Positions 6,701 to 61,556 of a stretch of 64,000 nucleotides of DNA are shown piece after piece (within the stretch, counting starts at the first letter, position 1; every line of letters starts with the position of its first letter). The stretch lies in assembly GCA_000092065.1 (NCBI GenBank), contig CP000595.1, one strand, 5' to 3'. The notes beneath the pieces were generated by a model, which was not told the DNA's origin, did no database searches, and worked only from the letters and a program-made list of their open reading frames with translations. The position numbers and the translations under genes are program-made. The DNA is from Ostreococcus lucimarinus. Lineage: Eukaryota.

Positions 6701-9700
6701 TGAGCTCGGGCTTGGCGAGCACGGAGCTTTTACAAATAACGATTTCAGAGACGACGGTGGCAAACATCACCAAGTTTACCGCTTGCACGGGATGCGCGGC
6801 GCAGCTCATCGTGGTCATAAGTGTCCCAAATAGTGTTACATCGACAGGCATATGCGCCACGGCGGGCTCGGCGACCAGCGTAAACTTCGACGAGAACGCA
6901 GAAGGAAGCGCGCCGTGGGGCGTCGGCGCGGCGCTCAACGCCGCTTGCGGGACCGACACGCACGACCCTGGTAGCGTCTCAACGGTGCAAGCGAAGTGGT
7001 GCGACCAGTGCCAGTATCTGGGTGAAGTGTACGATTCGTGCGTCGCTCAGATGGCGAACGAAGGGTTCAACTTTGCCCGCGCCGCCGTAATAGAGGGCTG
7101 TCGCATGGCGTTTGTGGCAATCTACGGATACGACCGCACGATTCCCTCATATCTCACGGCGACGGCGTCGACGGGCGCCACATTAGCGGACACCGTGTAC
7201 CCGTATAGAAGCTACACTCCGTCTGATGTGCAGTTTAAGTCACTCTCCGACAATCGCTTAGCTTTTGACGTGCTAGACGTCACGGAAACCTTGCCGGAAT
7301 ACATCGTCGGTACGACGAGAACGGATGGGTCGCGCACGCGAATGACTGGTTTGCCACGAGAGTTTACAGGCGAGACCGATACGACGCAAGTGTTCCCGTT
7401 CCCTAGAATTGAAGACTCGTGCAGAACCGCGAGTGATATAGGATCAACATCTGGGTATCGCGTGTACACTATGAATTACGCTTCGGCGACGGATGAAGCT
7501 CTGGAGATTACGATGTGCGGCTCCGCCACGGGAACCAACGTGGGCGTCTACACAAAAGACTTTGTAGACATCCCGTCGGCGGATTGGACGCACAATACTA
7601 CAAGTGCGAATGGGAATATCACTTTCACATTCACCCCGTGGATCGATGGCTTGGCCACGTATGAGGCTCGTTTCGAGTACTCTTTGGCGTCCACCAAGAA
7701 AAACGTGACGTTTGACGTCACTCGCACCTCTGCAAACGTCAACATTGGCTCGTTTGAATTCTACCCGCCGACGGCGTCGGATTCGTACGGCTCTGTTGGC
7801 TTTGAGTTTAGCGTTCCCAGTGCGGAAGCCGCCGCCACGGTTTCGTTCACAATGTCACCCACTGGCACTGGTGACTCAACGGCGGCGAACTCTGCGTTTA
7901 TCTCGCTTACCGCGGTTTTCATTCACGCGAAGAACTACGCGCAAGCGAGTTTGAATTACCCGCCATTCGGTGGGTTCAAGCAAGTCTCGTGCGCCAACTT
8001 CCAAGCGGCATCCTGTGGGTCGCTGAAGTTCACGGCGACGCAAAAGACATATTACATCGTCGTCTCTGGACAAAAATTCGTCTCGGGGGCGTACAGCATG
8101 CAAATAAAAAAGTTGAGCGCGGATTTGACAACCGTGTACACGGTGAGCAGCAACGCAGCGACGTCTTTGGTGAGGCCGTTGACGGGATTGGATGGCGCAG
8201 CCGATGGCACGTTGACGCCGTACAAGGTGGCAAAGTATGGCGATAATATTCGCGTCGTCGTGCGCGCGTCGCACGCAATAGATAGACCAAGAATCACGTT
8301 GGGCAATTACGCGGTTCCGAGCTCGAAGATTGTCTCTGCAGGTGCCGGCGCGGAGTATTCAGCGACGGTGACCGTCAGCGCTAGCATGGCGACTTCTGGA
8401 CACATCACGGTAAAGGTTGAGCAGGCGAGTACGCTCACCTCAGCATCGTATGGGTTTAAGACGTCCACTCATCCGTTGGGTTCTGACATCGCGCTCGTCG
8501 TGTTGGACAACACCGCGCCTACTGTCAGTCACGCCTGGGTCGTCAATCCATCCTACATGCTCGCGCCGTCGTCGGCGCCATCGTCCTGTACGAATCTTAC
8601 GACGTCCACGGGTAAGGATGTAAACGTTACGGCGGCAAAGTACGCAAAAGCGGGAGATTACATCGCCGTCATCTTTACGCCGTCGGAAAACGTCGCCACC
8701 ATCGGCGGTACCATCGGCGGTCAAGCTGCGACGAAATGGGTGCGAGCAACCGCGCCGCGCGACGTCACGCTCGCGATCGATGCTTATAAAATCACGATGT
8801 CCGCGGCCTACGTCGATGCCGCGTACGCGCTCGTCAATGACATCACACTCAGCGATGGAGTTTTACCGTTTTCCATTACGTTTACGGACGCCGTTGGCAA
8901 CGTCGGGACGACAATTAACTCGGCGATCAACTCCCTGACCGGTGTCACCGCGAGTTCACCTTTGGCCGATCGACTCAGCGCCGCTCGATTATTGTATGAT
9001 AAGTCACCACCGCGACCGGACTCATGGTCACTGAGGTACGCTAGTTCTTCGGAGATGACTGGGAACCAAGGTTCCAAGCCAGTGTATTATCACGGCTTTG
9101 ACAACGTGGCCTCGAGCGCCAAAGAGTATCGCATCGGTGACACGCTCGTATTAACTGGCACTTGGACCGAATATGTCTCTCGTCCGTACGGCGCGTACAT
9201 GCGCTCGAGCGCTTCAAGTGGCGTGCACGTTCCGCAATCAGCCATTACGATCACGGAGCAAGGCGGAAAACTCACCGGCAAGTTGGAGTGCATGGCGAAG
9301 GAGTTCCGTCCGCGAGCGCAAGAAGCCGTGAGCACCGCGCAAGGTTTCGGTGGAACCAGTTACGTGACATCGACATATCACAAATCATGGAAAGTGGAAG
9401 CGAACACGATCGATCCATGTGATATCGTCGGTAAAGGTGCGTTGGCGTGGAGCGCTCGCGCGGATTGCCAAGCGGAGCACTACGCCGGGAACTCGTTGTG
9501 GATTCCTCTCTGGTCTGCGTGGTGTCGTCACGGTTGGGGTACCTTGGGTTACGCCGTACTCGGAGGCGTCGACCCCGCTGGTAATTCGGCGACGGCGTTG
9601 CGCCAAGTGAGCAAATCTCCGAACAACGCCGACGCTACAGTTGTGATTGCCTCGTCCGCGGTGGCGGGCGACGCGATTATTCGCACGCCGATTCCCATCG

Positions 9701-36283: not shown

Positions 36284-37702
36284 TTAGTGCGCGTGCCCGT
36301 GCGAGTGGCCGCCGCCGCCGCCGGCTGTGCAGTGCTTGTGGTTGAGGAGCACGAGACTGACGGCGACGACGCCGACGACGAACGTCAAGAGGCTCGCCGC
36401 GCGAAGACGAGACGTAGTGGCGCTCACCGAAACTCGCGGCATACACTCCGCGGCAGCGATTTGTAGATAGATTCCAGCGCCAAAGGCGAGCAAAAGTCCG
36501 TGCCAGAAGTCGTTGTTACTTCCAGATCCAACGCTGATGAGAACGCCGAGGATGACGCTCACGCCGGAGATGAAGTTCATGAACAGCGAGCGAAACGGCG
36601 TGAGATCGCCCTGGAAGGGATCCGTGAGTACCAAATAGTCGGCGAGCTCTTGCGCGATTTCGTGATAGACGGTCGCGGCGGTGATCGACCATCCCATGGT
36701 CTTTCCACAGTTCAGGAAACCGAATCCGATGAAGATGCCATCCACGAGGTTGTGCATGAAATCTCCGAGGATGATGCCGCTTCGAACGCGATACTTGTGC
36801 GAGTGGCACGTTTCGCAATCTTCTTGAACGCCTTTGATCGCGTTCTCCGCGTCGATCGTCTTCGTCTCGGCTAAACGAGAAGGGAACGCGATGGAGATGC
36901 CCAAATCGATGATGTACGCCACGAGAAAGCCAAAGACGGACGCGGACGCCCACCACGCGGTTTGTTGCGACTCATCCGAACCGGCGGGTTTGATCAAATG
37001 CGTGGCTTCGTACAACATCAGATAGAACGCAGCCGAAAGAAGTGCACCGGCGGCAAAGGAGTTAATGATGCAACTCACGAATTCGGGGTACGCTTTCTGC
37101 TTCTTCGCGAAGCTCGGAGAGAGAAAGATGACGCCGGAAAGCGTGACGATGTTGACGATGATCGCCGCCCCGATGGCGTCGGACCACGGTTTTGATTTCT
37201 TTGTAGTCACCGTTTCGGGAAGCGAAGCCACTGGCTCCACGTCATCCCCGTTGACATCCTTGAGATAGTGCGTATCGCGCTCGAACTCGGTGGGAACGTG
37301 CTCGGCGAAAATCGAGACGGCGGCGACGCCAGTCGTATCAATCTTAAACGACGACGTGTGCCAAGCGTTATCAAATTGAAGTTTGACGCATCCACTCCCG
37401 GGCGTCAAAACGCTGTTTCGCGTTTTAACCGTCGTGCACGCCGTCTCGAGCGCGGCCTCGCCCGCGTCCTCGCGAGCCTCGAGCTCTTCGTGTCCGGCGG
37501 CGGTTTCGGCGTAGATGACCATCTTCATGGTCGCGTCCGCGTACTGGTCCTTCACCTTTTCCGCCTGCCACACGTACGCATCGTCCGGAGTCTCAAAGAT
37601 CCCCGCCCATTCGAACGAGTGCGCGTGCGCGCCGGACGCGAGCGCGCCGCGCGCCGCGAGCGCGCTCGAGACGACCGCCGCGCCTCCGAGCGCGGCGCCC
37701 AT
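36284..37702 (-). CDS. ZIP family (LIV-1/KE4-like subfamily) zinc/metal transporter
   Basis: HEIAQELADYLVL (HExPHExGD motif), GDFMHNLVDGIFIGFGF, a C-terminal His-rich GGGGGHSHGHAH tail, and the signal-peptide-like MGAALGGAAVVSSALAARGALASGAHAHS. The start is chosen at that Met. Upstream in-frame Mets exist. Confidence 0.8.
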   Translation of the reverse strand: MGAALGGAAVVSSALAARGALASGAHAHSFEWAGIFETPDDAYVWQAEKVKDQYADATMKMVIYAETAAGHEELEAREDAGEAALETACTTVKTRNSVLTPGSGCVKLQFDNAWHTSSFKIDTTGVAAVSIFAEHVPTEFERDTHYLKDVNGDDVEPVASLPETVTTKKSKPWSDAIGAAIIVNIVTLSGVIFLSPSFAKKQKAYPEFVSCIINSFAAGALLSAAFYLMLYEATHLIKPAGSDESQQTAWWASASVFGFLVAYIIDLGISIAFPSRLAETKTIDAENAIKGVQEDCETCHSHKYRVRSGIILGDFMHNLVDGIFIGFGFLNCGKTMGWSITAATVYHEIAQELADYLVLTDPFQGDLTPFRSLFMNFISGVSVILGVLISVGSGSNNDFWHGLLLAFGAGIYLQIAAAECMPRVSVSATTSRLRAASLLTFVVGVVAVSLVLLNHKHCTAGGGGGHSHGHAH

Positions 37703-37943
37703 CCTCCATCCGCCTCCTCGTCGTCGTCGTCGTCGTCCCGCGCCCGCGGTCGCGTCTCGCGTCGTCATCGCGTCGCGCATCGTCTCGTCTATCGTCTCGT
37801 GCATCGTCTCGTTCGTCGTCGTCGTCGTCGTCGCGCGTCGTCGAGTGCGGCGACCGCGCGCGCCGGCATCGCGACGAGACGACTCGAACCGGCGCGAGGG
37901 GGGTACTTCTCGAGTCATGACTCGATATTCATGAGAACACCAT

Positions 37944-37971
37944 GTGTCGACACCTCGCGAGGTGTCGACAC
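37944..37971. promoter_or_regulatory. 28-bp perfect palindrome GTGTCGACACCTCGCGAGGTGTCGACAC holding two exact ZDRE-type motifs (RTGTCGACAY) in the ZIP/bZIP divergent promoter
   Basis: Read directly. Its reverse complement equals itself. It lies 242 bp upstream of the ZIP ATG (37702, minus strand) and 47 bp upstream of the bZIP ATG (38018). A second palindrome CGAGTCATGACTCG with TGACTC half-sites is at 37911-37924. Confidence 0.65.
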
Positions 37972-38017: not shown

Positions 38018-38680
38018 ATGACGACCGTCGGCGGCGCCGCGCGACGTGACGATCGAGGCTCGGCGTTGCCTCCGCGATGCGTCGAGATCGCGCGCGAGTC
38101 GCCGTCGGCGTCGCCGTCTCGAAGGAAAACGCCCGCGAACGATCGCGCCGTCAATCGCGCCGCCGTGCGACGGTACCGCGAGCGCAAACGAATGGACGAG
38201 AAGGAGAGAATCGAGGAGTGCGAACGGTTGCGCGGGGAGAACGAGACGTTGAGACTGGCGTTGGAGACGTCACGAGCGGAGTTGAAACATTCGAGGTGGT
38301 TGTTGCGCGTCGTCGCGTGGAAGTACGACTTAGACTTGGCGGATATTCCGACGGAGAAACCGTCGACGTCGACGATGCCGCAAGGGAGGGTGAGAGGAAG
38401 CGATGCAAACGCGGTGTTTCCCGCGGGTGGGGTCCCCGCGCGGAACGACATCGCGCGACCGTTCGCCGCGCGCGGCGTCGCCGAGACGCGGCCTCGGAAA
38501 ATTCCTCGCGCAGCCGACGACGACGCGAAACCGGCGGGCGCGCCTGATGAACTCGAGCTCAAAGATTTCTTGGAGGAATACTTCACGCACGGCGACGCGT
38601 GCCCGTGCTACGAGATCACGGACGCGGACGCGCGCGCGGCGCCGACGCGCGGCGCCGACGCGCGGCACGCGTGGTTCTAG
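38018..38680 (+). CDS. bZIP-like transcription factor, paralog 1, with a C-terminal Cys motif (FLEEYFTHGDACPCYE)
   Basis: Basic region NRAAVRRYRERKR (N-x7-R), then the zipper EECERLRGENETLRLALETSRAELKHSRWLL. It aligns along its length with the second bZIP at 58700-59194, including the FLxEfxxHxDxxCPC tail. Confidence 0.6.
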   Translation: MTTVGGAARRDDRGSALPPRCVEIARESPSASPSRRKTPANDRAVNRAAVRRYRERKRMDEKERIEECERLRGENETLRLALETSRAELKHSRWLLRVVAWKYDLDLADIPTEKPSTSTMPQGRVRGSDANAVFPAGGVPARNDIARPFAARGVAETRPRKIPRAADDDAKPAGAPDELELKDFLEEYFTHGDACPCYEITDADARAAPTRGADARHAWF

Positions 38681-38850: not shown

Positions 38851-40167
38851 GTGCCCACGATGATCGCGCGTGTCGACACGAACAGACGGTTGGCCGAAAA
38901 GGCGAAAGGGTCGGCGGCTGTCGTCATCTCTCGACGAACGTTGGCGCTCGACATGGCGGACGAGCAAGACCAGACCTCGCGCGTGCCGGTGACCATTCTC
39001 ACCGGATTTCTCGGTTCCGGGAAGACGACGCTCCTCAATGAAATCTTGGAATCCGAAACGCACGGATTGCGCTTCGCGGTGATTGAAAATGAATTCGGAG
39101 AGGTGGGCGTCGACGAGAGGATTCTGTCGGAGAAGGCGGACGAAGAGATCATCGAGGTCATGAACGGTTGCATCTGCTGCACGGTGCGCGGTGATCTCGT
39201 GGTGGCGCTGAAAAAGCTCTACTCGAAGATCGCGCAGTTCGACGCCGTCATCATCGAGACGACGGGTTTGGCGGATCCGGCGCCGGTGGCGCAGACGTTC
39301 TTCGTCGACGATGACATTCGAGAAAAGTTTGTGCTCGACGGAATCATCACGGTCACGGACGCGAAGCACATCCTCACGCGGCTCGATGATGAAAAACCCG
39401 AGGGTGTGGAGAATGAAGCCGCCGAACAGGTCGCTTTTGCCGATCGGATACTCCTCAACAAGACCGACTTGGTGTCCGAAGACGAACTCGAAACCATCAC
39501 GGGCCGGATCAAGCAAATTAATCCGAGCGCCGATATCTTCCGATGCCAGTATTCCAAGGTTGATCCGAAAAATTTGATCGGAATCAATTCCTTCTCGCTC
39601 GAGAAGACCTTAAAAATGGATCCCGAATTCCTCAACACGGAGGGCGAGCATGAACACGACCCAACCGTGTCTTCGACGAGCACAAAATTCTCTGGGCACC
39701 TCAACATCAATAAATTAGAACGCTGGATAGGCGAAATAATTCAAACAATGGGTGCGGACTTGTTTCGGTACAAGGGTGTTCTTTCCGTTGCGGGCATGGA
39801 TCAAAAGTTTGTTTTCCAGGGCGTCGGCATGCTTTTCTCCGGCGGCTTCGTCGACGCCAAGTGGGGAGCCGACGAGGAGCGCGAATGCCGCTTCGTCTTC
39901 ATCGGTAAAAATCTGGACAAAGACGCCCTCATCAACGGTTTCATGGATTGCAAGTGTTCCTCGAAGCTTCGCTTCAAGGTGGGCGACGCGGTTCTCGCGC
40001 AGGTGGGCGCCGCCGACAACGACGGCTACTGCCGCGGCACCGTCCGTAAGACGTGGGACTCGGGCAACCCGTACCAGATCGAACTTGAAGACGGTAAAAA
40101 GACAAAAGTGTGGGGACCCGTCGACGAAGACGAGTTCGTCAAAGCTTCGCTCAGCGCCACCGCGTAA
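38851..40167 (+). CDS. COG0523/CobW-family GTPase (ZNG1-like zinc metallochaperone family)
   Basis: ILTGFLGSGKTTLLNEIL (P-loop), GCICCTVRGDL (CxCC metal motif), DAVIIETTGLADP and a CobW_C-like C-terminus. An exact ZDRE GTGTCGACAC at 38870-38879 lies inside the first annotated codons, so the true start is probably the Met at 38953 (MADEQDQTSRVPVTILTGF). Confidence 0.8.
   Translation: MPTMIARVDTNRRLAEKAKGSAAVVISRRTLALDMADEQDQTSRVPVTILTGFLGSGKTTLLNEILESETHGLRFAVIENEFGEVGVDERILSEKADEEIIEVMNGCICCTVRGDLVVALKKLYSKIAQFDAVIIETTGLADPAPVAQTFFVDDDIREKFVLDGIITVTDAKHILTRLDDEKPEGVENEAAEQVAFADRILLNKTDLVSEDELETITGRIKQINPSADIFRCQYSKVDPKNLIGINSFSLEKTLKMDPEFLNTEGEHEHDPTVSSTSTKFSGHLNINKLERWIGEIIQTMGADLFRYKGVLSVAGMDQKFVFQGVGMLFSGGFVDAKWGADEERECRFVFIGKNLDKDALINGFMDCKCSSKLRFKVGDAVLAQVGAADNDGYCRGTVRKTWDSGNPYQIELEDGKKTKVWGPVDEDEFVKASLSATA
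38870..38879. promoter_or_regulatory. ZDRE-type motif GTGTCGACAC at the 5' end of the COG0523 gene
   Basis: Exact match to RTGTCGACAY. It is 74-83 bp upstream of the alternative start at 38953. Confidence 0.5.
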
Positions 40168-58699: not shown

Positions 58700-59194
58700 A
58701 TGCGCGCGTCGCGCGGCGACGACGCGCCGGCGCTCCCGGGACGCGCGGTCGCGGTGGACGAAGACAAAAAATCGATCGACAACGACGCGAACAAGCGCGC
58801 CGTCAAGCGCTACCGCGATCGTCAGCGCGACGCGAAGATGAAGTTGGAATCCGAAAACGCGGCGCTGCGAGTGGAGACGACGCGGTTGGCGACGGAGCTC
58901 GCGCACGCGCGATGGGTGCTCGACGCGGTGGCGTCGCGGTGCGGGATGAAGCGACGCGCGACGGGGCGCGACGCGGACGCGGCGCTGCGCCGAAGCGTCG
59001 CGCGCGTGATCCACGGCGCGGGGTGCCCGCTGGGACATCAGGGGCGGGACAGGCCGTTTCGATTGGACGCGACGGAGGCGAGGCGACGCGAGGACGAGGA
59101 CGAGGACGAGTTGGCGGCGTTTTTGAAGGAGTTTTTGGTGCACGAGGACGGGAAGTGTCCGTGCCCGGGGCGCGCGCGCGATGGGGGCGAGTAG
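58700..59194 (+). CDS. bZIP-like transcription factor, paralog 2, with a C-terminal Cys motif (FLKEFLVHEDGKCPCPG)
   Basis: NKRAVKRYRDRQRDAKMKLESENAALRVETTRLATELAHARWVL aligns with the bZIP at 38018-38680. The ORF could start at 58508, but that would overlap the CbbY ORF on the other strand. Confidence 0.55.
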   Translation: MRASRGDDAPALPGRAVAVDEDKKSIDNDANKRAVKRYRDRQRDAKMKLESENAALRVETTRLATELAHARWVLDAVASRCGMKRRATGRDADAALRRSVARVIHGAGCPLGHQGRDRPFRLDATEARRREDEDEDELAAFLKEFLVHEDGKCPCPGRARDGGE

Positions 59195-59675: not shown

Positions 59676-61166
59676 CTAGTGCGCGTGCTCGACGCCGAGT
59701 TGCGCGAGCGCGATGACGAGAACGCCGGCGGTGTAACACACGAACTTGTAAATGCGCATGCCGCGCGCGGGCGCTTCGTGCACGGTGTGCGTGTGCGGAG
59801 CGAGTTTATGGTCGTGACCGTGCTCGTCTTCGCACGATTGCGTTTGCGTCTCGAACTCGTCGCCGATGACTTCCACGGTACCGACGTAAATGAACGTACC
59901 GGCGGCGATGCCCTCGAGGACGGCGGAGACGGCTGGGCTGTGTGCGCTTTCCGCCGCGCACCCGATCAAGATCCCGATCGGGGTTATGAACGAAAACGCC
60001 GTCATGAAAATGAAGAGCGTCTGCGGATTCGTCATGCCGCAGCGCAAAAACGCGCACCCGATGCTGAACGCGGCCGCGGCTTTGTGCGACGCGATGGCGG
60101 TGAAAATCGCGTACACACTGTTTCGATCGCTTTGAAGCCCGAGGGAGACACCCGCGAGAGAGGCGTGCAACGCGACGCCCGCCATGAAGAGCAAAGCCGT
60201 TCTCGTCTGCGCGAAGATGGACACGTGACGACCCTTCTCGTCGTGCGCGCACGTGTCGCACGCGTCGGTCGACGCCTTGTCCACGACGACGACGACGGCC
60301 GCATCGACGTGATGTTCTTTACTTTGTCCGTGTCCGTGTCCGTGTCCGTGGCCGTGCTCTCCGTCGCCCTCGCTCTCCGTCACGTGCGAGTGCGTGTGAA
60401 ACACGACGCGTTCGACGAAGAACGCGATGAGAAATCCCAGCATGACCATGACCATGGCGAAAGGATACTCCTTCGCCGTACCGATGCGTGCCTCCGTCGC
60501 GCTCTCGAGCGCGTGCGGGACGAGGTGCACGAACCCAGACGCGAGAAACAATCCCCCGCTGAACGCGTTCATAAACTCCAACGCGCTCTGCATCTTCGGC
60601 AGCGTTCTCACGAACAGCGACGGCAACATTCCTCCCGCCAAACCTTCAAAAAACACAGCCACCATGAGACCCATCTTGAGTTTGAAATGCTTCAACCCAC
60701 CCGTCGCCGCCGCCGCGCTTTCCGCCTCGCTCGCGATGAACGTGCACGTCGACTCGCTCAGGCACCGCGCCGCCAAACTCAGCGCCGAGAGCAACTCGGT
60801 CTCGTTCAACTTTTGATCCGCGCCCGCGTACGTCGTGATCACGTCCGCCGACGACACGTTCGTCAGCGTCTCCTCCGCGCTCGCGTGCGCGTGTCCAGCG
60901 CTCGCGTGCGCGTGTCCAGCGTGCGAATCCGCGCCCGCGCCCGCGCCGCTCGTCCTCGCCGCGAACCGCTCGAACAATTCGCTCAGCTCGTGAGCGTCCA
61001 TCGTCGCGTCGTCGTTGTCGTCGTTGTACGTCTCCAAGATGTGATCCACCGGCGTCTCGTCGCCTCTCGCGACGCGCGCCATCGCGCACGCGCACGCGCA
61101 CACCGTCAGCGCCGTCGCGAATCGCGCGCGCGCCCGTCGACACCGCCGCCGGTCGTTCGCCGTCAT
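59676..61166 (-). CDS. ZIP family zinc/metal transporter with a His-rich loop
   Basis: FFEGLAGGMLPS, HGHGHGHGHGQSKEHH loop, HKAAAAFSIGCAF, GIAAGTFIYVGTVEVIGDEF. The start is taken at MTANDRRRC (ATG complement at 61166-61164). The 1118-aa track ORF is inflated by stop-free antisense sequence of the LHC gene. Confidence 0.8.
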   Translation of the reverse strand: MTANDRRRCRRARARFATALTVCACACAMARVARGDETPVDHILETYNDDNDDATMDAHELSELFERFAARTSGAGAGADSHAGHAHASAGHAHASAEETLTNVSSADVITTYAGADQKLNETELLSALSLAARCLSESTCTFIASEAESAAAATGGLKHFKLKMGLMVAVFFEGLAGGMLPSLFVRTLPKMQSALEFMNAFSGGLFLASGFVHLVPHALESATEARIGTAKEYPFAMVMVMLGFLIAFFVERVVFHTHSHVTESEGDGEHGHGHGHGHGQSKEHHVDAAVVVVVDKASTDACDTCAHDEKGRHVSIFAQTRTALLFMAGVALHASLAGVSLGLQSDRNSVYAIFTAIASHKAAAAFSIGCAFLRCGMTNPQTLFIFMTAFSFITPIGILIGCAAESAHSPAVSAVLEGIAAGTFIYVGTVEVIGDEFETQTQSCEDEHGHDHKLAPHTHTVHEAPARGMRIYKFVCYTAGVLVIALAQLGVEHAH

Positions 61167-61398
61167 CTTGTCTCGCGCCGTCGCGAATCGCGCGCGCGTC
61201 GAGTCCCGGTCTCGACGCCCGCGCCCGGTTCGCCCCGGTTCGAGCGCGCGCGAACGAGCCGAAGAGGCGTCGCGAAGTGCGGCGATGCGCGCGCGTCGTG
61301 CACGTGTCGACGATTCGCGTCGTGCACGTGTCGAGGATCGTCGTACGCGACGCCCCGCGAAGCCCATCACGGATCGCGTCGCGACGCGCGTCGTAAAC

Positions 61399-61556
61399 AT
61401 GTCGACACGCATGTCGACATATTTACCCACGCGCGTGTACGCATTGAACCCCGTGATGCATCTATATACGAAAAACGTCTCGACGCACATGTCGACATAT
61501 TTACCCCACGCGCGTGTACGCATTGAACCCCGTGATGCATCTATATACGAAACAGA
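61399..61556. promoter_or_regulatory. Tandemly repeated ~78-bp element (about 2.2 copies) carrying three exact ZDRE-type motifs, in the divergent promoter between the ZIP gene (minus) and the LHC gene (plus)
   Basis: ATGTCGACAC at 61399-61408 and ATGTCGACAT at 61411-61420 and 61489-61498. The repeat unit gtcgacatatttacc(c)cacgcgcgtgtacgcattgaaccccgtgatgcatctatatacgaaa starts at 61413 and 61491. It lies 233-392 bp upstream of the ZIP ATG. Confidence 0.65.

What the first reader, a model, noticed from the sequence alone, without database searches (positions are those of the whole stretch)
38018..38680. Paralogous bZIP factors with a conserved C-terminal CPC motif that may act as a metal sensor
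The bZIPs at 38018-38680 and 58700-59194 align through the basic region, the zipper and an ARW(L/V)L motif. Both end with an acidic stretch followed by FLEEYFTHGDACPCYE and FLKEFLVHEDGKCPCPG. Plant bZIP19/23 sense zinc through an N-terminal Cys/His-rich motif. A C-terminal His...Cys-Pro-Cys module in both paralogs, each next to a ZIP gene, is a plausible alternative zinc-binding switch.
Basis: inference. Interest (0 to 1): 0.7.

Follow-up and report, generated by a model that had tools for sequence, protein, structure and literature searches.

The report
Algal zinc-response bZIP pair with Cys-x-Cys tail
Two related gene-switch proteins in the tiny marine green alga Ostreococcus sit beside metal-transporter genes that carry the same DNA control element land plants use for their zinc-starvation response. 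Both proteins end in a strongly conserved cysteine motif that may be their metal sensor, which suggests this circuit is older than land plants.

Summary
The window is Ostreococcus lucimarinus CCE9901. Both ORFs are paralogous bZIP proteins. Their only conserved part outside the bZIP domain is a C-terminal module: an acidic amphipathic helix followed by His-x-Asp-x(1-2)-Cys-x-Cys. Both cysteines are kept in 35 of 36 distinct family variants, and the module is better conserved than the bZIP domain itself.

The plant Zinc Deficiency Response Element (RTGTCGACAY) occurs 6 times in the window against 0.59 expected. All six lie in the promoter or 5' regions of ZIP1/bZIP1, a COG0523 (CobW-like) gene and ZIP2. 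This arrangement recurs in seven related algal lineages. The base-contacting residues (N..AV..YR) match plant bZIP19/23-type factors. Published surveys reported no such factors in this very genome.

The plant N-terminal Cys/His zinc-sensor motif is absent. A C-terminal sensor is therefore plausible but untested: no metal-binding fold was predicted. Published O. tauri RNA-seq shows the orthologous gene cluster rising under long-term low iron, so iron remains a live rival.

Verdict: probably a new variant of the F-bZIP/ZDRE circuit. Regulon role about 0.8; zinc-sensor role of the tail about 0.45.

The parts
38018..38680 (+). bZIP1 coding sequence (220 aa). Predicted as a bZIP helix at residues 40-102, a disordered linker, then the C-terminal module.
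   Evidence: ORF and translation. Pfam bZIP_2 29.3 bits. Orthologs aligned end to end. AF2 secondary structure.
38153..38191 (+). bZIP1 basic region, NRAAVRRYRERKR, with base-contact signature N..AV..YR.
   Evidence: Coordinates. The signature is shared with named plant bZIP19/23/24-like proteins.
38279..38305 (+). ELKHSRWLL at the end of the zipper. His91 and Trp94 are invariant in both paralog families.
   Evidence: Invariant columns in alignment A3. Coordinates.
38546..38614 (+). bZIP1 C-terminal module, DELELKDFLEEYFTHGDACPCYE: an acidic amphipathic helix followed by H191-x-D193-x-C195-P-C197.
   Evidence: Mean column identity 0.88, the highest in the protein. AF2 helix 178-194 is an island of pLDDT 60-69 in a disordered half. 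Motif census.
58700..59194 (+). bZIP2 coding sequence (164 aa), 100% identical to XP_001421642.1 of Ostreococcus lucimarinus CCE9901.
58790..58828 (+). bZIP2 basic region, NKRAVKRYRDRQR (N..AV..YR).
59012..59065 (+). bZIP2 unit 1, HGAGCPLGHQGRDRPFRL. This second His/Cys unit is invariant in bZIP2-type proteins and absent from bZIP1.
   Evidence: Invariant H105, G106, C109, P110, L111, P119, F120 in alignment A2. Also present in P0040, P0042 and P0242.
59105..59170 (+). bZIP2 unit 2, DELAAFLKEFLVHEDGKCPCPG: helix followed by H148-x-D-x2-C153-P-C155-P-G.
   Evidence: AF2 helix 134-145.
37944..37971 (.). Two exact ZDREs (GTGTCGACAC), 18 bp start to start, in the ZIP1/bZIP1 divergent promoter. They lie about 50-75 bp upstream of the bZIP1 ATG.
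   Evidence: The same 18-bp pair occurs in L012, L013 and L116, and three ZDREs at 12-bp phasing occur in O. tauri.
38870..38879 (.). Exact ZDRE at the 5' end of the COG0523 gene. It is upstream of the conserved start codon at 38953.
   Evidence: O. tauri has a one-mismatch version, ATGGCGACAC, at the same place.
61399..61498 (.). Three exact ZDREs at 61399, 61411 and 61489, lying 230-330 bp upstream of the ZIP2 ATG, inside a 79-bp tandemly duplicated promoter module.
   Evidence: Orthologous ZIP2 promoters carry 2-4 ZDREs.
36284..37702 (-). ZIP1, a ZIP-family metal transporter. The ORF runs to 37918; the likely start is the Met at 37702, before a signal-peptide-like stretch.
   Evidence: Pfam Zip 76 bits. 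Start candidates. The O. tauri ortholog is ostta06g02310.
38953..40167 (+). COG0523 / CobW-like GTPase with a GCICC metal motif. The ORF opens at 38851.
   Evidence: Pfam cobW 207 bits and CobW_C 80 bits. Translation. The O. tauri ortholog is ostta06g02290.
59676..61166 (-). ZIP2, a ZIP-family transporter with an (HG)n loop, tail-to-tail with bZIP2.
   Evidence: Pfam Zip 164 bits. Translation.
37910..37925 (.). Perfect 16-bp palindrome TCGAGTCATGACTCGA beside the ZDRE pair. This is a second conserved element of the shared promoter.
   Evidence: Related palindromes occur in O. tauri (L001:9873) and in L012:4986.

Best explanation
bZIP1 and bZIP2 are most likely the transcriptional regulators of a small metal-deficiency regulon, probably a zinc-deficiency one, in Ostreococcus and related Mamiellales.

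Proposed mechanism:
- As dimers they most likely bind the 10-bp palindrome RTGTCGACAY, the plant ZDRE. This element sits in the promoters of the two adjacent ZIP transporter genes, of a COG0523 zinc-chaperone-type gene, and of bZIP1 itself.
- Their base-contacting residues (N..AV..YR) match those of plant bZIP19/23.
- They lack the plant N-terminal Cys/His zinc-sensor motif.
- The only other conserved element is a C-terminal acidic amphipathic helix, with activation-domain-like composition, that runs directly into His-x-Asp-x(1-2)-Cys-x-Cys.
- I infer that metal occupancy of these ligands masks the helix when zinc is plentiful and releases it when zinc falls. The ligands could come from the two tails of the parallel dimer, or in bZIP2 from its second His/Cys unit.

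What is shown: the motif conservation, the ZDRE placement, the gene linkage and the shared basic-region signature. What is inferred: DNA binding, metal binding, zinc specificity and the masking step.
For: 1. ZDRE enrichment and placement. There are 6 exact RTGTCGACAY in 64 kb against 0.59 expected, and 0 of 100 shuffles reached 6. All six lie in the ZIP1/bZIP1, COG0523 and ZIP2 5' regions. One-mismatch sites are not enriched (16 found against 14.5 expected).
2. Conservation elsewhere. O. tauri has 3 tandem ZDREs between ZIP and bZIP, expected 0.17. L002 has 4 upstream of the ZIP2 ortholog. L012, L013 and L116 have pairs upstream of bZIP1. L005 has 2 cores and L135 has a tandem pair upstream of the ZIP gene next to a bZIP2-type gene. 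In the L001, L002, L005-L007, L013, L116, L135, L018 and L057 loci, every TGTCGACA core lies in these promoter regions. The one exception is the core at L012:5777, just downstream of the bZIP1 stop.
3. Base-contact signature. N..AV..YR occurs in 16 of 87 non-query hits of an exhaustive profile search. These are the Mamiellales proteins, land-plant proteins named bZIP19/23/24-like, and a few unnamed ones. Plant bZIP19/23 bind the ZDRE (PMC9643250).
4. Motif constraint. See: both Cys are kept in 35 of 36 variants while the residue between them varies.
5. Structure. AF2 gives a helix ending at the motif in both paralogs, flanked by disorder. The segment holds 10 acidic and 2 basic residues in bZIP1.
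6. COG0523 genes are zinc-limitation markers in Chlamydomonas, where the regulator was unknown (PMC2770081).
7. The O. tauri orthologs of COG0523, bZIP1 and ZIP1 change together in RNA-seq.
Against: - There is no direct evidence of DNA or metal binding.
- AF2 predicts no folded metal site; pLDDT is below 50 at CPC in bZIP2.
- His is not invariant in the bZIP2 family.
- Phylogeny of the short bZIP domain does not place these proteins with F-bZIPs; bootstrap support is 0.08 or lower.
- F-bZIPs score no better than ATF4-like or fungal bZIPs in the profile search (E 1e-5 to 1e-3).
- The only expression data found show induction of the O. tauri cluster after a week in low-iron Aquil medium: COG0523 logFC 3.5, ZIP 2.0, bZIP 2.1 and 1.6 at the two daytime points. 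No zinc experiment on these genes was found.
- bZIP2 has no ZDRE in its own promoter.
Confidence: 0.5

Rival explanations
1. The regulon and the Cys-x-Cys tail respond to iron rather than zinc. The tail could bridge a [2Fe-2S] cluster between two chains, as the Cys-Asp-Cys motif of yeast Aft1/Aft2 does. The ZIPs would then act as IRT-like iron importers.
For: - In O. tauri RNA-seq, the orthologous COG0523, bZIP and ZIP genes are higher in low-iron than high-iron Aquil cultures at all four (COG0523, ZIP) or three of four (bZIP) time points.
- Of six ZIP genes, only ostta06g02310 (the ZIP1 ortholog by position and length) and ostta16g02300 (Ot-Irt1) responded to iron.
- Ot-Irt1 has a GHGHGHGHGHG loop like that of ZIP2 (PMC4855317; ZIP2 sequence).
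- The Aft1/2 precedent is from my own knowledge.
Against: - Short-term iron removal with the iron-specific chelator DFOB did not induce the cluster (logFC 0.55, -0.63 and 0.20).
- The same paper reports strong zinc-iron cross-talk and a rise in zinc-protein transcripts under low iron, so a secondary zinc signal is possible.
- The cis element equals the plant zinc element, and COG0523 is a zinc-limitation marker in Chlamydomonas that was unaffected by iron there.
- I did not verify that Ot-Irt1 is the ZIP2 ortholog.
Confidence: 0.15
2. The C-terminal module is only an activation or cofactor-docking domain, or a thiol redox switch of the Yap1/Pap1 kind. Metal status would then be sensed elsewhere, for example by another protein or through ZDRE-driven autoregulation of bZIP1.
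For: - The segment has activation-domain-like composition: acidic with bulky hydrophobics, and a predicted helix.
- Only 2-3 candidate ligands per chain exist in bZIP1.
- No folded site is predicted.
- bZIP1 has ZDREs in its own promoter.
- The Yap1 precedent is from my own knowledge.
Against: - Both Cys are invariant while the residue between them varies. This points to selection on the thiols themselves.
- A His lies within a few residues of CxC in every variant.
- Extra His residues accumulate after CPCPG in several lineages (GHHSHHG, GHSHADSHE).
- The plant relatives are direct zinc sensors.
- A pure redox switch does not explain the ZIP/COG0523 linkage.
Confidence: 0.2
3. The bZIP genes are neighbours or targets of the ZDRE system but not its DNA-binding factors. 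A different protein binds RTGTCGACAY.
For: - Binding was not tested.
- bZIP2 has no ZDRE of its own.
- Profile and tree analyses do not tie the proteins specifically to F-bZIPs.
Against: - A 10-bp palindrome with a central CG is a typical bZIP dimer site.
- The five base-contact residues equal those of the plant factors shown to bind this element.
- bZIP-ZIP adjacency is kept in at least seven lineages, including one with different flanking genes.
Confidence: 0.1

Closest known systems
Arabidopsis bZIP19/bZIP23 (plant F-group bZIPs) with the ZDRE
   Same: - bZIP factors whose base-contact residues are N..AV..YR.
- The identical 10-bp element RTGTCGACAY, often in tandem, in promoters of ZIP transporter genes.
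- A Cys/His element preceded by an acidic-hydrophobic stretch (plant ...FFDEILKDT..CTHTHTCNPPGP; alga ...AFLKEFLVHEDGKCPCPG).

   Different: - The two-box plant zinc-sensor motif N-terminal to the basic region is absent.
- The candidate sensor is C-terminal and much shorter (His + Cys-x-Cys).
- The plant post-zipper motif CLLVD(I/L)RGRI(D/E)GE is absent.
- A COG0523 gene carries a ZDRE at its 5' end.
- One paralog has ZDREs in its own promoter.
- The literature states that F-bZIPs are absent from O. lucimarinus and green algae (PMC5476651, PMC9643250).
Yeast Zap1 and Mac1 (metal-masked activation domains; from my own knowledge)
   Same: In both, an activation domain is embedded in or adjacent to Cys/His metal ligands, so that metal binding switches off transactivation. 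In Mac1 the Cys-rich repeats are C-terminal and contain CxC.
   Different: The DNA-binding domains are unrelated (zinc fingers; copper-fist). Mac1 senses Cu(I). They have many more ligands per site than seen here.
Yeast Aft1/Aft2 Cys-Asp-Cys motif (from my own knowledge)
   Same: A bare C-x-C motif in a transcription factor bridges a cofactor between two chains and controls a metal-uptake regulon.
   Different: The ligand is a [2Fe-2S] cluster delivered by glutaredoxins. The DNA-binding domain is different. The motif is not fused to a C-terminal acidic helix.
CD4/CD8-Lck 'zinc clasp' (C-x-C-P tail motif; from my own knowledge)
   Same: bZIP2-type tails read C-P-C-P, which fits the C-x-C-P pattern. 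In the clasp, short unstructured tails from two chains build one intermolecular Zn(Cys)4 site. This is a structural precedent for two bZIP tails clasping one zinc.
   Different: The clasp is a heterologous partner pair in animal signalling proteins. There is no transcriptional role and no homology is implied.
ATF4 / C/EBP bZIPs (the annotation given to the O. tauri ortholog)
   Same: Profile-search scores are similar (E 1e-6 to 1e-3). ATF4-like proteins share N..AA..YR and C/EBP-like proteins share N..AV..SR.
   Different: Neither has both Val and Tyr. Neither has the C-terminal module, ZDRE-type sites or linkage to metal transporters.

Membership tests
Plant F-group bZIP (bZIP19/23/24) | bZIP domain | tested here: met
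   Pfam bZIP_2 scores 29.3 bits for bZIP1, above the 22.3 cut-off. bZIP2 scores 17.3 bits, below the cut-off, but is alignable throughout.
Plant F-group bZIP (bZIP19/23/24) | Basic-region base-contact residues N-x2-A-V-x2-Y-R | tested here: met
   bZIP1 has NRAAVRRYR and bZIP2 has NKRAVKRYR. Named plant bZIP19/23/24-like hits have NREAVRKYR or NRAAVRKYR. Some bZIP2 orthologs have AT or AA instead of AV.
Plant F-group bZIP (bZIP19/23/24) | Two-box Cys/His-rich zinc-sensor motif (CTHTHTCNP...HTHTCxHxH) N-terminal to the basic region | tested here: not met
   No such motif appears in any Mamiellales family member (alignments; regex scan). The plant hits have it.
Plant F-group bZIP (bZIP19/23/24) | ZDRE (RTGTCGACAY) in promoters of ZIP target genes | tested here: met
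   There are 6 exact sites against 0.59 expected, all at the ZIP1/bZIP1, COG0523 and ZIP2 5' regions. They are conserved in related lineages.
Plant F-group bZIP (bZIP19/23/24) | Groups with F-bZIPs in a phylogeny | tested here: inconclusive
   Neighbour-joining with 300 bootstraps on a 37-residue domain gave the Mamiellales clade support of 0.08 and no resolved sister. F-bZIP E-values are no better than those of ATF4-like bZIPs.
Plant F-group bZIP (bZIP19/23/24) | Conserved post-zipper motif (L[KR]CLLVD[IL]RG[RK]I[DE]GE) | tested here: not met
   The algal proteins have ELxHxxW(L/V)L instead, and the alignment shows no match.
Plant F-group bZIP (bZIP19/23/24) | Direct Zn2+ binding and zinc-dependent loss of activity | not testable with these tools
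   Needs metal-binding assays and reporter genetics.
Homology of the C-terminal module to the plant zinc-sensor module | Profile-profile similarity of helix plus Cys/His cluster | tested here: inconclusive
   The hhalign score was 14.55. Column-shuffle nulls gave 8.4 +/- 2.2 and 8.1 +/- 2.2, with 1.3-1.7% of 300 shuffles reaching the observed score. HHsuite probability was only 7.7%.
Yap1/Pap1-type redox bZIPs | Basic region N..AQ..FR and a C-terminal Cys-rich domain of three or more Cys overlapping a nuclear export signal (from my own knowledge) | tested here: not met
   The basic region is N..AV..YR. Only two Cys are in the tail, and I saw no clear leucine-rich export-signal pattern.
COG0523 zinc metallochaperone (the neighbour gene) | cobW GTPase domain, CobW_C domain and CxCC motif | tested here: met
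   Pfam cobW 207 bits and CobW_C 80 bits. GCICC appears in the translation. Zinc-related function was not tested.

The most novel reading that the evidence does not exclude
The whole F-bZIP/ZDRE zinc-deficiency circuit (factor, DNA element and ZIP targets) already existed in the common ancestor of green algae and land plants. Its sensor is a portable module, an acidic helix fused to a Cys/His cluster, that sits C-terminally in Mamiellales and N-terminally in plants. In the alga it would work as an inter-chain Cys-x-Cys zinc clasp that masks the activation helix. This would be the first zinc-sensing transcription factor identified in any alga, and in an ecologically dominant marine picophytoplankton group.
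Probability: 0.3. Interest if true: 0.85.

Novelty: new variant of a known kind. Interest (0 to 1): 0.72.

Why it matters
Reviews of plant zinc homeostasis state that F-bZIP regulators arose with land plants. They state specifically that none exists in Ostreococcus lucimarinus or Chlamydomonas (PMC5476651, PMC9643250). In 2009 the zinc regulator of green algae was described as unknown (PMC2770081), and I found no later report of one in the searchable library.

Here, in that very O. lucimarinus genome, the plant zinc-deficiency DNA element sits in front of ZIP transporters and a COG0523 gene. Beside them lie two bZIP genes with the plant-type DNA-contact residues.

If confirmed, this would:
- push the origin of the circuit back to early green-lineage evolution;
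- give marine picoeukaryotes a candidate zinc (or zinc/iron) sensor that can be tested in transformable O. tauri;
- provide a ready-made marker set (ZDRE genes) for trace-metal stress in ocean metatranscriptomes;
- offer a minimal natural sensor module (about 25 residues) to compare with the plant motif now being engineered for biofortification.

Tried and rejected
1. Regulon discovery by scanning metagenome contigs for tandem ZDREs. Of 120 stretches, only L018, L057 (same species) and L116 (another clade) were relevant by tblastn; the rest were unrelated soil, freshwater or bacterial contigs. No new regulon members were found.
2. Phylogenetic placement by neighbour-joining with bootstraps. 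The first script timed out. The faster version gave no resolution beyond the bZIP1 clade.
3. AlphaFold2 monomers of bZIP2 and bZIP1. These gave helices only and no metal-site geometry. They were not worth a fold search.
4. PDB sequence searches with the bZIP2 C-terminal segment (residues 93-164, both His/Cys units) and with full-length bZIP1 gave nothing significant.
5. The third homolog search, with a diverse alignment, was capped at 8000 candidates and added only P0242 and P0243.
6. The loci of the more distant N..AV..YR proteins P0061 and P0046 have no adjacent ZIP gene and no TGTCGACA. They gave no support for a wider circuit.
7. I rejected the idea that the TGTCGACA sites are ordinary Val-Asp coding sequence in a GC-rich genome. 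One-mismatch variants are at chance level while exact sites cluster only in the promoters.
8. I considered and dropped an alignment of the algal HxxW(L/V)L motif with the plant CLLVD motif, because the heptad register differs by three residues.
Full report
**What is there**

The window has 60.4% G+C. The 164-aa product of 58700-59194 is 100% identical to XP_001421642.1, a 'predicted protein' of Ostreococcus lucimarinus CCE9901. The window is therefore from that genome.

ORF 38018-38680 (+) encodes a 220-aa protein, bZIP1. It passes the Pfam bZIP_2 threshold at 29.3 bits. The second protein, bZIP2, scores 17.3 bits, below threshold. The two align by BLASTP at E=4e-10 and 30% identity, through the basic region, the end of the zipper and the C-terminal motif.

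The neighbouring genes are:
- A ZIP transporter, ZIP1, on the minus strand at 36284-37702/37918, divergent from bZIP1.
- A COG0523/CobW-like GTPase with a GCICC motif at 38851/38953-40167, directly downstream of bZIP1.
- A second ZIP transporter, ZIP2, at 59676-61166, tail-to-tail with bZIP2.

**Is the motif real?**

Yes. A search of 5.8 billion proteins found bZIP1 orthologs in several Ostreococcus clades, including O. tauri at 52% identity. bZIP2 orthologs were found down to 43% identity.

In bZIP1 orthologs...ELELKxFLEEYFTHGDACPC... is nearly invariant while the preceding linker of about 70 residues is barely alignable. Mean column identities are 0.88 for the motif, 0.83 for the bZIP domain, 0.52 for the linker and 0.42 for the tail.

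bZIP2 orthologs keep (D/E)ELxxFL(K/R)EFLV(H/A)xxxxCPCPG. They also keep a second invariant unit, AHGxxCPL...GPFRL.

An exhaustive HMMER search of 1.84 billion cluster representatives found bZIP2-type proteins in further lineages (P0040, P0042), and the last word-based search added P0242. All three have both units, often with extra His after CPCPG (GHHSHHG, GHSHADSHE).

Among 36 distinct motif variants:
- Both Cys are kept in 35.
- The middle residue varies (P 30, L 3, A 2).
- His is present in 34, and the two exceptions have His just after the motif.

A more distant protein of unknown origin, P0049, has two copies of a related unit, F(L/M)..F.H..(x)CPL.G...GPFRLP. This suggests the two bZIP2 units are repeats of one ancestral unit and that bZIP1 kept only the second.

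The actual spacing is H-x-D-x-CPC in bZIP1 and H-x-D-x2-CPC in bZIP2.

**The decisive context: ZDREs**

The plant Zinc Deficiency Response Element is RTGTCGACAY. It is bound by Arabidopsis bZIP19/23 in ZIP and NAS promoters (PMC9643250).

It occurs six times in the window, against 0.59 expected; none of 100 shuffles reached six. The sites are:
- 37944 and 37962, between ZIP1 and bZIP1.
- 38870, at the 5' end of the COG0523 gene.
- 61399, 61411 and 61489, which are 230-330 bp upstream of ZIP2.

One-mismatch versions are at chance level, 16 found against 14.5 expected.

The ZIP2 sites lie in a 79-bp tandemly duplicated promoter module.

The arrangement is conserved in related lineages:

| Locus | Arrangement |
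|---|---|
| O. tauri chromosome 6 (L001) | ZIP(-)/bZIP(+)/CobW(+), with three ZDREs at 12-bp phasing between ZIP and bZIP (expected 0.17) |
| L012, L013, L116 | The 18-bp-spaced pair upstream of bZIP1 |
| L002 | Four sites upstream of the ZIP2 ortholog |
| L005 | Two cores upstream of the ZIP next to P0042 |
| L135 (different flanking genes) | GTGTCGACATcgATGTCGACAC upstream of the ZIP next to P0242 |

In these related loci, every TGTCGACA lies in one of these promoter regions. The single exception is the core at L012:5777, just past the bZIP1 stop.

**Relation to plant F-bZIPs**

The residues at the five base-contacting positions of the basic region are N, A, V, Y, R in bZIP1, in bZIP2 and in most relatives.

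Among the 87 other hits of the exhaustive search, this combination occurs in 16:
- The Mamiellales proteins.
- Land-plant proteins that carry the CTHTHTC...HTHTCxHxH motif and/or the source names 'basic leucine zipper 19-like', '23' or '24' (Ananas, Zea, Papaver, Chenopodium, Avena).
- A few unnamed proteins.

The remaining hits are mostly N..AA..YR (ATF4-like or fungal) or N..AV..SR (C/EBP-like).

This shared signature, plus the identical DNA element in front of the same gene family, is the case for calling these proteins F-bZIP-like. The case has clear limits:
- The plant N-terminal two-box zinc-sensor motif is absent.
- The plant post-zipper motif is absent.
- A bootstrap tree of the short domain is unresolved.
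- F-bZIPs score no better than ATF4-like proteins against the profile.

I therefore do not file them as members of the F group. I describe them as a new variant that most likely works like one.

Published surveys explicitly report no F-bZIPs in O. lucimarinus or Chlamydomonas and conclude that the group arose with land plants (PMC5476651, PMC9643250). Correa et al. 2008 left four of eight O. tauri bZIPs unassigned. The O. tauri ortholog is annotated as ATF4/5-like. I found no paper linking a ZDRE to any alga.

**How the C-terminal module may work**

AlphaFold2 predicts the same plan for both paralogs: one long bZIP helix, a disordered linker, and a short helix that ends exactly at the His/Cys residues.
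- In bZIP1 the short helix is residues 178-194, pLDDT 60-69, amid values around 40.
- In bZIP2 it is residues 134-145.
- The CPC residues themselves are disordered.

The helix segment is strongly acidic with bulky hydrophobic residues. It has 10 acidic and 2 basic residues in bZIP1. This is the composition of acidic activation domains; that comparison is an inference from general knowledge.

Because the plant relatives sense zinc directly and the plant motif is missing here, the invariant thiols next to this helix are the obvious candidate sensor. I propose that zinc bound by these ligands holds the helix in an inactive state. Zap1 and Mac1 are functional precedents. There are two possible geometries:
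- Cys-x-Cys from both chains of the parallel dimer form the site. The C-x-C-P 'zinc clasp' of CD4/Lck is a structural precedent, from my own knowledge.
- In bZIP2, unit 1 (His105, Cys109) combines with unit 2 (His148, Cys153, Cys155).

All of this is inference. Nothing here shows metal binding.

**A further lead**

In plants the zinc-sensor motif is itself preceded by an acidic-hydrophobic stretch...SMDSFFDEILKDT..CTHTHTCNPPGP. This resembles ...DELAAFLKEFLVHEDGKCPCPG.

A profile-profile comparison scored 14.55. Column-shuffle nulls gave 8.4 +/- 2.2 and 8.1 +/- 2.2, with 1.3-1.7% of 300 shuffles reaching the observed score. The HHsuite probability was only 7.7%.

This is suggestive and no more. 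It would mean the sensor module is ancestral and has moved from one end of the protein to the other. Some Papaver F-bZIP models carry a second copy of the plant motif at their C-terminus, though that may be a gene-model fusion.

**Zinc or iron?**

The only expression data I found are from an iron study of O. tauri (PMC4855317). By gene length and order, the mapping is ostta06g02290 = CobW-like, ostta06g02300 = bZIP1 ortholog, and ostta06g02310 = ZIP1 ortholog.

After a week in Aquil medium with 54 versus 1080 nM Fe-EDTA:

| Gene | Low versus high iron, by time point | logFC |
|---|---|---|
| CobW-like (ostta06g02290) | 110 vs 9.6, 157 vs 15, 135 vs 16, 235 vs 13 | 3.5 |
| ZIP (ostta06g02310) | higher in low iron at all four points | 2.0 |
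| bZIP (ostta06g02300) | higher in low iron at three of four points | 2.1 and 1.6 at the two daytime points |

At 3-6 h after adding the iron chelator DFOB, none of the three responded (logFC 0.55, 0.20 and -0.63).

So the ZDRE-linked cluster is co-regulated, as the model predicts. The trigger in that experiment was prolonged low iron. The authors themselves stress an unusual zinc-iron connection, with many zinc-protein genes induced.

Three points favour zinc: COG0523 genes are zinc-specific markers in Chlamydomonas and were unaffected by iron there (PMC2770081); the DNA element equals the plant zinc element; and there was no acute DFOB response. Even so, an iron or Fe-S sensor of the Aft1/2 Cys-x-Cys kind cannot be excluded.

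**Verdict**

- I put about 0.8 on the two bZIPs being regulators of a ZDRE-marked metal-uptake regulon.
- I put about 0.45 on the C-terminal His/Cys-x-Cys module being a zinc-binding switch.
- I put 0.5 on the combined statement in its 'most likely' form.

It is a new variant of a known kind. Its interest is high because it contradicts the published view of where this circuit began, and because it names a testable candidate metal sensor in a major marine phytoplankton group.

Noticed in passing
window 37910-37925; L001:9873; L012:4986; L001:3041: A perfect 16-bp palindrome, TCGAGTCATGACTCGA (two outward-facing TGACTC half-sites), lies about 20 bp from the ZDRE pair on the ZIP1 side. Near-identical palindromes occupy the same position in O. 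tauri and in the P0007 clade. One more copy lies elsewhere in the O. tauri locus. It may be a second bZIP-type site, possibly for the other paralog.
   Followed up: partly
window 61395-61552; L018, L057, L002: The ZIP2 promoter holds a 79-bp tandem module containing a ZDRE and a TATATA stretch. Copy number differs between near-identical strains: 3 ZDREs in the window and 4 in L018/L057, whose ZIP2 proteins are 98% identical to the window's. Two degenerate ZDRE-like repeats (CGCGTCGTGCACGTGTCGA[CG]GAT) lie closer to the ATG, at 61292 and 61316.
   Followed up: partly
P0001, P0007, P0008, P0015, P0019 (public gene models of bZIP1 orthologs): Many database gene models start too far upstream and translate the promoter ZDREs into peptide. 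They read as VDT, VST, HVDI or MSTPMSTPVSTP at the N-terminus. These extensions are annotation artefacts, and incidentally they record the conserved ZDREs.
   Followed up: partly
window 38018-38680: The cluster holding bZIP1 (186 members, 40 read) showed no NCBI or UniRef record, whereas bZIP2 is XP_001421642.1. bZIP1 may be unannotated in the O. lucimarinus reference proteome. That could be one reason earlier surveys missed it.
   Followed up: partly
P0046 / P0154 (locus L134, unknown organism): These long proteins have two bZIP domains of the N..AV..YR type (GNRAAVRRYREKKK). P0046 also has a Cys/His-rich N-terminal region (CGHLAHGHACH, CVHAHHTC, CWHVH). There is no ZIP gene or TGTCGACA nearby. 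They could be F-bZIP-like factors of another algal group.
   Followed up: partly
P0061 (loci L009-L011, unknown organism): This 187-aa bZIP has NREAVRNYRARKK, a zipper resembling plant F-bZIPs, no N-terminal Cys/His motif, and C-terminal HLPGCDFGK...SCPGGHCP...ACPSG. The HxxGC(D/P)(F/L)G stretch aligns with unit 1 of bZIP2.
   Followed up: no
P0122, P0260, P0262-P0264 (Papaver F-bZIP models): These carry a second copy of the plant zinc-sensor motif (DFLNEF...THTHICNPAGPDSSHTHTCIRSHT) at the C-terminus. This is either a real duplicated module or a fusion of tandem genes.
   Followed up: no
O. tauri ostta06g02300 (bZIP1 ortholog), PMC4855317 supplementary file 4: Transcript counts are about 3-4 in the light samples and 100-209 in the dark samples of the short-term experiment (logFC light/dark -5.2). 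The factor is strongly night-expressed.
   Followed up: no
L031, L081, L126 (metagenome contigs, 43-48% G+C): These short contigs hold 11-16 copies of TGTCGACA. They are apparently tandem repeats unrelated to the algal loci.
   Followed up: no
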